A DNA stretch of 64,000 bases from Escherichia coli (GTDB taxonomy: Bacteria > Pseudomonadota > Gammaproteobacteria > Enterobacterales > Enterobacteriaceae): the NCBI RefSeq assembly GCF_030013205.1, contig NZ_CP122648.1; one strand, given 5' to 3'. Position numbers: made by a program. The number at the start of each line of letters is the position of its first letter. Position 1 is the first letter of the stretch. This document shows positions 52,011 to 55,000 of the stretch, in pieces.

Positions 52011-55000
52011 TGATCTGATTCGGGCGCGGTTCTCGCGCCCGTTATTAACAGGTCATTTATCGGAAGACGCCTGCCACAGATTCAGCTCGCCATCGGCGAT
52101 ATGCTGATCAATCTGCGCCAGCTCCTCGGTGCTAAATGTCAGATTATTCAGCGCCTGCACGTTCTCCTCAAGTTGCTCCGCGCGGCTGGCACCAATCAAT
52201 ACCGACGTCACGCGATCATCTTTCAGCAACCAGCTTAACGCCATTTGCGCCATTGATTGTCCACGTTGCTGTGCCATTTCATTCAATAACCGCAGGCTGT
52301 TGAGGTTGGCTTCGGTGAGCATTTTCGGCGTCAGACCACGAACTTTATTCCCTTCACGATGCATCCGTGAATCTTGCGGAATGCCGTTGAGATATTTCCC
52401 GGTCAGCAATCCCTGAGCCAGAGGAGTAAAGGCAATGCAGCCCACGCCGTTATTTTGCAGGGTATCCAGCAGGCCGCTTTTATCCACCCAGCGGTTCAGT
52501 AAATTGTACGAAGGTTGATGAATTAACAGCGGAATTTTCCACTCGCGCAGCAACTCGACCATTTTTTGCGTCCGCTCTGGCGAGTAAGAGGAGATCCCGA
52601 CATACAGCGCCTTACCGCTTTGTACCGCATGAGCCAGCGCAGAGGCGGTTTCTTCCATCGGCGTATTTTCATCGACGCGATGAGAGTAAAAGATATCGAC
52701 ATACTCAAGCCCCATACGGTTCAGGCTTTGGTCGAGGCTGGCGGGCAGATATTTACGTGAACCGCCAGAGCCGTAAGGGCCGGGCCACATATCGTATCCA
52801 GCCTTGGTAGAGATAATCAGTTCATCGCGATAAGCGGCAAAATCCTCCCGCAGCAGGCGACCAAAGTTCTCTTCTGCGCTTCCTGGAGGCGGCCCGTAAT
52901 TGTTGGCTAAATCAAAGTGCGTAATGCCTAAATCAAACGCTTTACGCAGGATCGCACGCTGTGATTCCAGCGCGTTAACGTGACCGAAATTGTGCCATAA
53001 ACCGAGCGATAACGCGGGCAGGCGTAAACCGCTTTTTCCGCAATAACGGTACTGCATCTGCCCGTAACGCTCGGGATTCGCTAACCAGACCATGACCTCT
53101 CCTTTCCACCATTCAATTTCGAAACAATGTTTCTAGTTTAGCGATTCATCAGCGCGTATCCCGTAGTCTGGCTCACAGAGTGACGAAAAACTGGGCAAAA
53201 ACACGTGCTTATGCTTTGCTTAAAAAAACACCAACTGAGGAGTGCAATGATGCCGCGTTTAACCGCCAAAGATTTCCCACAAGAGTTGCTGGATTACTAC
53301 GACTATTACGCTCACGGGAAAATCTCGAAACGTGAGTTCCTCAACCTTGCGGCGAAGTATGCGGTAGGCGGGATGACGGCATTAGCGTTGTTTGATTTGC
53401 TCAAGCCAAATTATGCGCTGGCGACTCAGGTAGAGTTTACCGACCCGGAAATTGTTGCTGAGTACATCACGTATTCTTCGCCAAATGGTCACGGCGAGGT
53501 ACGGGGTTATCTGGTGAAGCCCGCAAAGATGAGCGGCAAAACGCCAGCCGTGGTGGTGGTGCATGAGAATCGTGGACTGAATCCGTATATCGAAGATGTG
53601 GCACGGCGAGTGGCGAAGGCGGGGTATATCGCCCTGGCACCTGACGGCTTAAGTTCCGTTGGAGGTTATCCGGGAAATGATGATAAAGGTCGTGAGCTGC
53701 AACAGCAGGTTGATCCAACCAAACTGATGAATGATTTCTTTGCCGCAATTGAGTTTATGCAACGCTATCCGCAAGCGACAGGCAAAGTGGGTATTACCGG
53801 ATTTTGCTATGGCGGTGGCGTATCGAACGCGGCGGCTGTCGCGTATCCGGAACTGGCCTGCGCGGTGCCGTTTTATGGTCGACAGGCACCCACCGCCGAT
53901 GTGGCGAAGATTGAAGCGCCTTTACTACTCCACTACGCGGAACTGGACACCCGAATCAACGAGGGCTGGCCTGCTTACGAGGCGGCGTTGAAAGCCAATA
54001 ATAAGGTCTATGAGGCGTATATCTATCCGGGGGTTAATCACGGATTCCATAATGATTCCACGCCCCGTTATGACAAATCAGCCGCCGATCTTGCCTGGCA
54101 AAGAACGCTGAAATGGTTCGATAAATATCTCTCCTGATAGGTTTATCTCTTACGGGATTACGTCTTAAACAAGCATGAAAAAATAGCGTGCGCAGAAGTC
54201 GTTCTTTGCCTAAAATATCGCTATATATGACAATATATAGCGAATGAGGTGAACGATGAATAACCATTTTGGTAAAGGCTTAATGGCGGGATTAAAAGCA
54301 ACGCATGCCGACAGTGCGGTTAATGTGACAAAATACTGTGCCGATTATAAACGCGGTTTTGTATTAGGCTACTCACACCGGATGTACGAAAAGACCGGAG
54401 ATCGCCAGCTTAGCGCCTGGGAAGCGGGTATTCTGACGCGCCGCTATGGACTGGATAAAGAGATGGTAATGGATTTCTTTCGTGAGAATAATTCCTGTTC
54501 TACGTTGCGCTTTTTTATGGCCGGTTATCGCCTCGAAAATTGATCAAACATACGTATTATCTTGCTTTAATTAATTACACTAATGCTTCTTCCCTTCGTT
54601 TTAGCGCCCCGCCGCAGTATCATGATATCGATAACCATAATAAATGTGTGGTAAATGGCGCATCGATCGCATTATTGATTTTGCGATTGAGGCAAAATAT
54701 ATGCCAGGTCTTCGCAACGGAATAACTATAAATGACTGGAGATAACACCCTCATCCATTCTCACGGCATTAACCGTCGTGATTTCATGAAGCTTTGTGCA
54801 GCATTAGCCGCCACCATGGGGTTAAGTAGCAAAGCCGCTGCAGAGATGGCCGAATCGGTTACTAACCCGCAGCGTCCGCCAGTTATCTGGATTGGCGCGC
54901 AGGAGTGTACCGGTTGTACTGAATCTCTGCTTCGTGCAACGCATCCAACGGTAGAAAACCTCGTGCTGGAGACTATCTCTCTGGAGTATCACGAAGTGCT

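What the first reader, a model, noticed from the sequence alone, without database searches (positions are those of the whole stretch)
53247..54137. Intact dienelactone-hydrolase gene at the yghX locus
A continuous ORF of roughly 296-310 codons with a DLH fold is present. In K-12 I recall this locus being a pseudogene split into yghX/yghY. The N-terminus has an unusual MMPRLTAKDFPQ start and the protein could be exported.
Basis: partly seen in the sequence, partly recalled or inferred. Interest (0 to 1): 0.3.

Follow-up and report, generated by a model that had tools for sequence, protein, structure and literature searches.

The report
Intact yghX hydrolase gene, ordinary
This is the normal, working copy of the E. 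coli gene yghX, a dienelactone-hydrolase-type enzyme that probably carries an export leader; laboratory strain K-12 and about a fifth of E. coli strains have it broken by two small deletions, so the finding is correct but already known.

Summary
Window 53247/53250-54137 (+) is one open frame of 296/295 codons. The window is 100% identical to E. coli strain D8, where RefSeq annotates the frame as yghX, "YghX family hydrolase". It sits between gpr and yghW-hybO.

Aligned to K-12 MG1655, K-12 lacks 2 bp at window 53358-53360 and 1 bp at 53719/53720. These are the frameshifts that make K-12 yghX a pseudogene. What remains in K-12 is the 47-aa small protein YqhI.

The K-12 lesions are natural alleles. 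The 2-bp junction is in 1251 of 5426 complete genomes and the 1-bp junction in 1198. The intact form of the second site is in 4221.

Intact alleles are under purifying selection (dN/dS 0.03-0.11). The catalytic domain of the O157:H7 ortholog has a solved structure (PDB 4ZV9). The ClcD catalytic residues are conserved as Cys186, Asp233, His264 and Glu106.

The "MM" start comes from a rare SNP at 53248. The conserved start is 53250.

The first 58 residues look like a twin-arginine (Tat) export signal. Distant homologs have RRxFL; E. coli has KR. An uncharged stretch and PNYALA follow. Against a plain signal, AlphaFold2 models this leader confidently and it is unusually conserved, so export is likely (about 0.55) but unproven.

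Verdict: already known, low interest.

The parts
53237..53242 (+). Shine-Dalgarno-like GAGGAG. It lies 7 nt before the ATG at 53250 and 4 nt before the ATG at 53247.
   Evidence: Read directly from the sequence. The same sequence precedes K-12 yqhI, and YqhI was detected in K-12 by chromosomal epitope tagging (PMC6001520).
53247..53249 (+). Extra in-frame ATG created by T at 53248 (K-12 has C). This is the source of the 'MM' start.
   Evidence: Alignment A1. The exact 40-mer is in 94 of 5152 genomes, and the rest differ by one base. That base was not inspected in the other genomes.
53250..54137 (+). yghX coding sequence as annotated by PGAP in the identical strain D8 record (295 aa, WP_001360974.1, YghX family hydrolase).
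   Evidence: dN/dS is 0.035-0.11 between intact alleles.
53250..53423 (+). Leader, residues 1-58. It contains a conserved n-region (Pfam YqhI-like, residues 1-36), a KREFL motif, a weakly hydrophobic stretch YAVGGMTALALF-D-LL, and K-PNY-ALA with a predicted signal-peptidase site after Ala58.
   Evidence: Pfam PF23678 at 75.9 bits. Homolog alignment consensus LYDxYxH...RRxFLxR...PxxAxA. Motif counts. The PDB 4ZV9 chain aligns from about residue 59-60.
53328..53333 (+). Codons AAA CGT = Lys27-Arg28, at the position where most distant homologs have Arg-Arg.
   Evidence: RR in 66, KR in 10, HR in 1 and RK in 1 of 79 cluster representatives. KR in all 120 close enterobacterial clusters.
53358..53360 (+). 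Site of the K-12 2-bp deletion (TA or AT within TAT, codon Tyr37). Intact here.
   Evidence: The K-12 junction 40-mer is in 1251 of 5426 genomes. The natural dog isolate RM14721 is annotated 'frameshifted'.
53719..53720 (+). Site of the K-12 1-bp deletion (one C of ACC, codon Thr157). Intact here.
   Evidence: The K-12 junction 40-mer is in 1198 genomes and the intact 40-mer in 4221.
53565..53567 (+). Glu106 codon (HENRG motif), equivalent to ClcD Glu36.
   Evidence: HMMER alignment to the ClcD variant 4U2C.
53805..53807 (+). Cys186 codon, the nucleophile in G-F-C-Y-G-G, equivalent to ClcD Cys123.
   Evidence: It aligns with position 123 of 4U2C. Nearly invariant in alignment A2.
53946..53948 (+). 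Asp233 codon, equivalent to ClcD Asp171.
   Evidence: Invariant in A2.
54039..54041 (+). His264 codon, equivalent to ClcD His202.
   Evidence: Nearly invariant in A2.

Best explanation
The feature is the intact, functional allele of the core E. coli gene yghX. This is the majority state in the species. It encodes a 295-aa precursor.

Residues 59-295 form an alpha/beta-hydrolase of the dienelactone-hydrolase (DLH) family. It has a Cys186-His264-Asp233 triad and a Glu106 that matches Glu36 of Pseudomonas ClcD. By inference it hydrolyses an ester, lactone or thioester through a covalent thioester on Cys186. The substrate is unknown and is probably not dienelactone.

Residues 1-58 form a conserved leader. 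The family-wide sequence pattern is that of a twin-arginine (Tat) signal peptide, with Lys-Arg replacing Arg-Arg in enterobacteria. I infer that the folded enzyme is exported to the periplasm and the leader is cut off after Ala58.

In the K-12 lineage, a 2-bp and then a 1-bp deletion destroyed the reading frame. Only the first 36 residues of the leader are still made there, as the small protein YqhI.

Shown: intactness, identity, the K-12 lesions and their frequencies, purifying selection, fold, and conservation of the catalytic residues. Inferred: export (about 0.55), cleavage site, chemistry and substrate.
For: Identity. The window is 100% identical to E. coli D8, where the ORF is annotated as yghX. 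NF041440 scores 586 bits and PF01738 scores 164.6 bits.

Lesions. Alignment A1 locates the -2 and -1 deletions in K-12. The K-12 annotation shows the pseudogene plus yqhI. The YqhI sequence MPRLTAKDFPQELLDYYDYYAHGKISKREFLNLAAK+CGRRDDGISVV is given in PMC6001520.

Population. K-12-type junctions are in 1251 and 1198 of 5426 genomes, and the intact second site is in 4221. In the spread sample, some full-length matches are 2 bp shorter than the query and others 3 bp shorter. This fits the -2 deletion preceding the -1 deletion.

Selection. dN/dS is 0.035-0.11 between the D8, ST131, O157 and MN06021 alleles. The K-12 allele is identical to that of the natural isolate RM14721.

Fold and catalysis. 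PDB 4ZV9 (O157:H7 Sakai ortholog, 97% identity) superposes on the AF2 model at 1.0 A with TM 0.98. C186, D233, H264 and E106 align with ClcD C123, D171, H202 and E36.

Leader. The consensus of 35 diverse homologs is LYDxYxH..RRxFLxR..A/G/S/T/L stretch..PxxAxA. Among 79 cluster representatives, 66 have RR, 10 KR, 1 HR and 1 RK. Three representatives have a lipobox Cys at the end of the hydrophobic stretch, and some have P/A/T-rich linkers after it. The TIGR01409 TAT_signal_seq model hits 6 of 35 homologs, and Rieske and formate-dehydrogenase Tat-signal models hit others. A single Arg-to-Lys change usually only slows Tat export, and one native KR cargo (TtrB) is known (PMC6708511).
Against: Against export. 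E. coli has KR, not RR. Its uncharged stretch is only 12 residues before Asp50. No Tat-signal HMM hits the E. coli protein itself.

AF2 models the leader with pLDDT 90-95 in the full-length protein. It still gives 87 mean (91-96 for residues 11-40) when residues 1-64 are folded alone. From general knowledge, that is not typical of a disposable signal peptide.

Among 120 close homolog clusters the leader is more conserved than the mature domain, 90.8% against 87.0% identity.

No signal-peptide predictor could be run, and no localisation data were found in the literature.

Against dienelactone as substrate. The equivalent of ClcD Arg206 is Asn268. No aromatic-catabolism genes lie nearby.
Confidence: 0.85

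Rival explanations
1. The first 58 residues are not a cleaved signal. They form a small three-helix N-terminal domain of a cytoplasmic (or peripherally membrane-bound) hydrolase. On this view the Tat-like motif is ancestral and no longer functions in enterobacteria.
For: AF2 gives pLDDT 90-95 for the leader, and it stays confident when residues 1-64 are folded alone. The leader is more conserved than the mature domain among close homologs, 90.8% against 87.0%. All 120 enterobacterial clusters have KR, and the uncharged stretch is only 12 residues. His22 is 77% conserved and Tyr20 74% conserved in the n-region.
Against: The region after the RR motif is an A/G/S/T/L stretch without charges, 11-41 residues long across homologs. 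It is followed by PNYAxA or, in three representatives, by a lipobox Cys and then low-complexity P/A/T linkers of variable length. That pattern fits a signal peptide, not a soluble helical bundle. Residues 60-295 fold and crystallise without the leader (4ZV9).
Confidence: 0.25
2. The leader is a Sec-type signal peptide or an uncleaved N-terminal membrane anchor, so the protein reaches the periplasmic side without the Tat system.
For: KR rather than RR. There is a hydrophobic stretch and an AxA site.
Against: RRxFL is present in 66 of 79 cluster representatives. The E. coli hydrophobic stretch is short, rich in Gly/Ala/Thr and contains Asp50. Lys52 precedes the cleavage motif, which is a Sec-avoidance feature described in PMC6708511. 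At 58 residues the leader is far longer than the 17-24 residues of Sec signals.
Confidence: 0.1
3. The ORF in this window is open by chance and is a decaying, non-functional gene, as in K-12.
For: About 22-23% of E. coli genomes tolerate loss of the gene. No function has been published.
Against: dN/dS is 0.035-0.11 across phylogroups at dS up to 0.22. The catalytic residues are intact. Orthologs of 85-92% identity are present across Citrobacter, Enterobacter, Kosakonia, Leclercia and Pseudescherichia.
Confidence: 0.03

Closest known systems
E. coli K-12 MG1655 yghX pseudogene (b4658) and the small protein YqhI (b4755)
   Same: Same locus and neighbours (gpr, yghW, hybO). Within the coding region there are 11 substitutions apart from the indels. 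YqhI residues 1-36 equal YghX residues 1-36.
   Different: K-12 lacks 2 bp at window 53358-53360 and 1 bp at 53719/53720. It has C instead of T at 53248, so it has no MM start. The window allele is intact.
PDB 4ZV9, uncharacterized protein from E. coli O157:H7 str. Sakai (2.0 A, released 2015)
   Same: Ortholog, 97% identical. The AF2 model of the window protein superposes at 1.0 A rmsd over 237 columns.
   Different: The crystallised chain aligns only from about residue 59-60, so the 58-residue leader is absent. No function is assigned. The visible substitutions are V69F, S76P, S135N and Y229F.
Pseudomonas dienelactone hydrolase ClcD (PDB 1DIN; carboxymethylenebutenolidase)
   Same: Same alpha/beta fold (TM 0.84 normalised to the target). 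The Cys-His-Asp triad, Glu36 and Arg81 have equivalents C186, H264, D233, E106 and R148.
   Different: Only about 25% identity. ClcD has no N-terminal leader (236 aa). ClcD Arg206 is Asn268 here. There is no chloroaromatic catabolic gene context.
Tat signal peptides; TtrB of tetrathionate reductase as the native Lys-Arg case
   Same: The layout is the same: S/T-(K/R)-R-x-F-L motif, a weakly hydrophobic stretch, a basic residue before an AxA site. A KR pair replaces RR as in TtrB.
   Different: The leader is 58 residues against about 30 typically. It has a conserved 26-residue n-region (Pfam YqhI-like) that AF2 models as folded. Tat dependence is untested.
Klebsiella pneumoniae putative dienelactone hydrolase (PDB 3F67)
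   Same: Nearest solved paralog-level relative. It has a GFCWGG nucleophile motif and 28% identity.
   Different: 241-aa chain with no YqhI-like leader in the solved construct. It belongs to a different subfamily.

Membership tests
YghX family hydrolase (NCBIfam NF041440) | Whole-protein HMM score above the curated cutoff of 460 bits | tested here: met
   586.3 bits, covering residues 4-295 of the 296-aa form against profile positions 1-292 of 292.
YghX family hydrolase (NCBIfam NF041440) | Orthologous position between gpr and yghW/hyb in E. coli | tested here: met
   Same gene order as K-12 and strain D8.
Dienelactone hydrolase family (Pfam PF01738) | Pfam model above the gathering score | tested here: met
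   164.6 bits against 21, covering profile positions 1-217 of 217.
Dienelactone hydrolase family (Pfam PF01738) | Alpha/beta-hydrolase fold like ClcD | tested here: met
   AF2 model with pLDDT 96.4. Foldseek TM 0.98 to 4ZV9 and 0.84 to 1DIN.
Dienelactone hydrolase family (Pfam PF01738) | Cys nucleophile in G-x-C-x-G-G, with Asp and His completing the triad, plus the Glu36 equivalent | tested here: met
   C186 (GFCYGG), D233, H264 and E106 align with ClcD positions 123, 171, 202 and 36. They are invariant or nearly invariant in A2.
Dienelactone hydrolase family (Pfam PF01738) | Carboxylate-binding Arg81 and Arg206 of ClcD (roles recalled from knowledge of ClcD, not tested here) | tested here: inconclusive
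   The Arg81 equivalent is present (R148). The Arg206 equivalent is Asn268.
Dienelactone hydrolase family (Pfam PF01738) | Carboxymethylenebutenolidase activity (EC 3.1.1.45) | not testable with these tools
   No enzymology for YghX was found in the literature searched.
Twin-arginine (Tat) signal peptide | Two consecutive arginines in the S/T-R-R-x-F-L-K motif | tested here: not met
   The window has S-K-R-E-F-L-N. RR is present in 66 of 79 homolog cluster representatives at the same position. A single Arg-to-Lys change is usually tolerated, and TtrB is a native KR cargo (PMC6708511).
Twin-arginine (Tat) signal peptide | Hydrophobic residues at +2/+3 after the RR pair, a weakly hydrophobic h-region, and an AxA c-region with a basic Sec-avoidance residue | tested here: met
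   F30-L31; YAVGGMTALALF-D-LL; K52; A56-L57-A58. The uncharged run is 12 residues in E. coli and 11-41 in homologs.
Twin-arginine (Tat) signal peptide | Match to curated Tat-signal HMMs (TIGR01409 and related) | tested here: inconclusive
   There is no hit for the window protein. TIGR01409 hits 6 of 35 homologs (best E 0.0041), PF10399 hits 3 and TIGR02811 hits 2.
Twin-arginine (Tat) signal peptide | Tat-dependent export and cleavage shown experimentally | not testable with these tools
   No data were found.
K-12-type yghX pseudogene | Frameshifting deletions at codons 37 and 157 | tested here: not met
   Both sites are intact in the window.

The most novel reading that the evidence does not exclude
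YghX would be a Tat-exported periplasmic cysteine hydrolase with a native Lys-Arg motif. A 2019 review names TtrB as the only known native KR cargo (PMC6708511), so YghX would be a second one.

Its 58-residue leader would be more than a targeting tag. The n-region is conserved and AF2 models it confidently as helices. It could mask the motif, occlude the enzyme until export, or bind a partner.

The K-12 'small protein' YqhI, which is induced at low Mg2+ (PMC11429745), would then be the orphaned front half of this leader. In strains with the intact gene, the product of that response would be full-length YghX.
Probability: 0.35. Interest if true: 0.45.

Novelty: already known. Interest (0 to 1): 0.15.

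Why it matters
The finding matters little as a discovery. RefSeq already annotates this gene as intact outside K-12, NCBI has a dedicated family model, and the O157:H7 ortholog has a crystal structure.

Three practical points follow.

- K-12 is unrepresentative here. About 78% of complete E. coli genomes carry the intact form of the second lesion site. The 'neutral' yghX site widely used for chromosomal integration in K-12 metabolic engineering is a live gene in most strains.
- The K-12 small protein YqhI, studied as a low-Mg2+-induced protein, is the remnant of the YghX leader. Its regulation probably reports on yghX.
- If the KR leader does use the Tat pathway, YghX adds a substrate that RR-based predictors and K-12-based substrate lists would miss.

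Tried and rejected
- The sigma-70 promoter and terminator scan of 53050-54300 found no + strand promoter upstream of yghX and nothing above shuffle expectation. No promoter is assigned.
- Genomic context of three distant homologs (P0138, P0123, P0131) showed no conserved neighbours, no yghW and no chaperone-like gene. Context gives no clue to the substrate. A glyoxalase-family gene sits upstream in one lineage, and gpr sits upstream in E. coli, but this is too weak to use.
- The intact 40-mer around the first lesion site matched only 843 genomes, because nearby SNPs break the 28-base seed. It cannot be used as a count of intact alleles. The second site gave a nearly complete partition (4221 + 1198 of 5426 genomes).
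- Hit H40 ('dienelactone hydrolase family protein | mdtM') was considered as a possible paralog. It is an IS1-associated truncation that leaves only the 3' end of yghX beside mdtM in one strain.
- Full-text searches for yghX, YqhI, and dienelactone hydrolase plus twin-arginine found no functional or localisation study. An old suggestion that YghX is a candidate cPHB polymerase rests only on the GXCXG motif (PMC3709699) and was not adopted.
- The 310-codon reading from the GTG at 53205 was rejected. PGAP in strain D8 and the K-12 yqhI annotation both use the ATG equivalent to 53250.
- No signal-peptide predictor (SignalP, TatP) was available, and AF2 coordinates could not be inspected. I could not see where the leader packs against the catalytic domain.
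Full report
**Observation**

The + strand between 53205 and 54137 is one open frame. 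It runs 296 codons from the ATG at 53247 (MMPRLTAKDFPQ...) and 295 from the adjacent ATG at 53250. The mechanical maximum is 310 codons, from a GTG at 53205. A GAGGAG Shine-Dalgarno-like sequence at 53237-53242 lies 7 nt before 53250 and only 4 nt before 53247.

The 1.2 kb around the ORF is 100% identical to E. coli strain D8 (NZ_CP010151.1). The locus is present in 5425 of 5426 complete E. coli genomes. In strain D8, PGAP annotates 53250-54137 as yghX, 'YghX family hydrolase', 295 aa. It is flanked by gpr (divergent) and by yghW-hybOABC. The same gene order is visible in the window's ORF list.

**Identity of the protein**

Pfam DLH (PF01738) matches residues 85-295 at 164.6 bits. A second Pfam model, YqhI-like (PF23678), matches residues 2-37 at 75.9 bits. 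NCBIfam NF041440 'YghX family hydrolase' scores 586 bits against a cutoff of 460.

The closest solved structure is PDB 4ZV9, an 'uncharacterized protein from E. coli O157:H7 str. Sakai'. It is 97% identical and its chain aligns to query residues 59-294. An AlphaFold2 model built on 35 diverse homologs has mean pLDDT 96.4. It superposes on 4ZV9 at 1.0 A (TM 0.98) and on Pseudomonas ClcD (1DIN) at TM 0.84.

The HMMER alignment to a ClcD variant (4U2C) matches these residues:
- Cys186 (GFCYGG) with ClcD position 123
- Asp233 with Asp171
- His264 with His202
- Glu106 with Glu36
- Arg148 with Arg81
- Asn268 with ClcD Arg206, so this one is not conserved

Asp233 is invariant across the 35-sequence alignment, and Cys186 and His264 are nearly invariant. 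The fold and catalytic machinery of the DLH family are therefore present. Dienelactone as the substrate is not established and is doubtful.

**The K-12 lesion**

K-12 MG1655 annotates yghX as a pseudogene (b4658). A 47-aa CDS, yqhI (b4755), overlaps its 5' end. Locus tags b2999 and b3000 are absent between yghW (b2998) and gpr (b3001), which fits two earlier ORF calls having been merged.

Aligning the window to K-12 shows three relevant differences:
- K-12 lacks 2 bp in AAG-TAT-GCG (window 53358-53360, codon 37).
- K-12 lacks 1 bp in CCA-ACC-AAA (window 53719/53720, codon 157).
- K-12 has C rather than T at 53248, so it has a single start ATG.

The published YqhI sequence is MPRLTAKDFPQELLDYYDYYAHGKISKREFLNLAAKCGRRDDGISVV. 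That is YghX residues 1-36 plus an 11-residue frameshifted tail. YqhI was detected by chromosomal epitope tagging (PMC6001520), so the yghX start signals are active. A later study found YqhI translation induced under Mg2+ limitation, independently of PhoQP (PMC11429745). I infer that in strains with the intact gene the induced product is YghX.

**Population view**

I used 40-mers centred on the K-12 deletion junctions. Every possible 28-base seed from such a query must span the junction, so only genomes carrying the deletion can match.

| Query | Genomes matched (of 5426) |
|---|---|
| K-12 2-bp deletion junction | 1251 |
| K-12 1-bp deletion junction | 1198 |
| Intact form of the second site | 4221 |

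The two forms of the second site together account for 5419 genomes. The carriers include many natural isolates from pig, dog, human and water. One is the dog isolate RM14721, whose yghX PGAP marks 'frameshifted' and whose allele is identical to that of K-12.

In the spread sample, some full-length matches are 2 bp shorter than the query and others 3 bp shorter. Together with 1251 exceeding 1198, this suggests the 2-bp deletion came first. The pseudogene is therefore a young, clonal, natural allele found in about a fifth of sequenced E. coli. The window carries the majority state.

The T at 53248 that creates the 'MM' start is rare. The exact 40-mer is in 94 of 5152 matching genomes, and the others differ by one base. 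That base was not inspected in the other genomes.

**Selection**

Nei-Gojobori comparisons between the window allele and the intact alleles of ST131, O157:H7 EC4115 and MN06021 give dN/dS of 0.035-0.11 at dS of 0.07-0.22. After indel repair, the K-12 allele differs from the window by 9 synonymous and 2 real non-synonymous changes. The gene is under purifying selection wherever it is intact.

**The N-terminal 58 residues**

I took 35 full-length members from a search of cluster representatives at 50% identity and aligned them. The consensus is LYDxYxH-x4-RRxFLxR, then an uncharged A/G/S/T/L stretch, then PxxAxA, before the conserved 'DP' that opens the catalytic domain.

Evidence that this is a twin-arginine signal peptide:
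- Of 79 representatives with a complete N-terminus, 66 have RR at this position, 10 KR, 1 HR, 1 RK and 1 no motif. The following uncharged run is 11-41 residues.
- Three representatives replace AxA with a lipobox (ILAAC, SIAAC, LVAAC). Several insert P/A/T-rich linkers after it.
- TIGR01409 TAT_signal_seq hits 6 of 35 homologs. Rieske and formate-dehydrogenase Tat-signal models hit a few more.
- In E. coli the elements are S-K27-R28-E-F-L, then YAVGGMTALALF-D-LL, then K52, then P-N-Y-A56-L-A58 followed by T59.
- A 2019 review states that a single Arg-to-Lys change usually only slows export. It names TtrB as the only known native KR cargo and describes basic residues before the c-region as serving Sec-avoidance (PMC6708511).
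- The 4ZV9 chain aligns from about residue 59-60, so its depositors appear to have omitted this region.

Evidence against a simple signal peptide:
- All 120 close (85-98% identical) homolog clusters have KR. Their leader is more conserved than the mature domain, 90.8% against 87.0% identity.
- His22 and Tyr20 in the n-region are 77% and 74% conserved across distant homologs.
- AF2 models the leader as three helices (11-21, 27-37, 44-51) with pLDDT 90-95 in the full-length protein.
- When residues 1-64 are folded alone on a 27-sequence alignment, AF2 gives the same helices with mean pLDDT 87 and 91-96 for residues 11-40. From general knowledge, signal peptides are usually modelled with low confidence.
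- No Tat HMM hits the E. coli protein itself, and I could not run SignalP or TatP or inspect the model coordinates.

I put Tat export with cleavage after Ala58 at about 0.55. A retained structural N-terminal domain gets about 0.25, and a Sec signal or membrane anchor about 0.1. The remainder is left unassigned.

**Context and function**

Three distant homologs sit in unrelated neighbourhoods with no shared partner. The E. coli neighbours (gpr, yghW, hyb) give no clear lead. Published mentions of yghX are almost all as a K-12 integration site. An old proposal that it is a cPHB polymerase rests only on the GXCXG motif.

The committed mechanism is a Cys186 thioester-intermediate hydrolase acting on an unidentified ester, lactone or thioester, probably in the periplasm.

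**Verdict**

The gene's intactness outside K-12, its family and its structure are already in public annotation, so the finding is ordinary. The only part that goes beyond the record is the KR Tat-like, unusually conserved leader and its link to YqhI. That part is an inference needing experiment.

Noticed in passing
window 54218-54243: A perfect palindrome TCGCTATATAT-GACA-ATATATAGCGA (11-bp arms, 4-bp loop) lies between the yghX stop (54137) and the yghW start (54256). It is identical in K-12. The scan flagged it as terminator-like on the minus strand. It could be an operator for yghW or a terminator.
   Followed up: no
window 54138-54300: This 163-bp stretch (the yghX-yghW spacer plus the yghW 5' end) has 6089 matching places in 5422 genomes, so about 667 genomes hold a second partial copy elsewhere. 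Mid-gene yghX 40-mers have only about 5 extra places, one of them on a plasmid. The location of the second copy was not determined.
   Followed up: partly
window 50405-50444 (exbD-yghA spacer): The spacer is 38 bp here and in strain D8 but 271 bp in K-12. K-12 carries about 230 extra bp made of two copies of a sequence (GCCTGATGCGCTACGCTTATCAGGCCTACA...) that I recognise as REP/BIME-type.
   Followed up: partly
window 53475-53477 (codon 76): The window's YghX has Ser76. ST131, O157:H7, MN06021, K-12 and the 4ZV9 protein all have Pro76, so this is a lineage-specific substitution just after the predicted mature N-terminus.
   Followed up: no
L010 (E. coli IAL7255) 2248-3260: In one strain an IS1 copy abuts a 96-bp 3' remnant of yghX placed next to mdtM. 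This is an independent, IS-associated loss of the gene.
   Followed up: partly
L001 (K-12) 4598-4741; window 53250-53357: The K-12 small protein YqhI is the first 36 residues of the YghX leader plus a frameshift tail. It is reported as induced at low Mg2+, with a deletion phenotype that YqhI does not complement. In the passages I read, neither paper states that yqhI is the remnant of yghX.
   Followed up: partly
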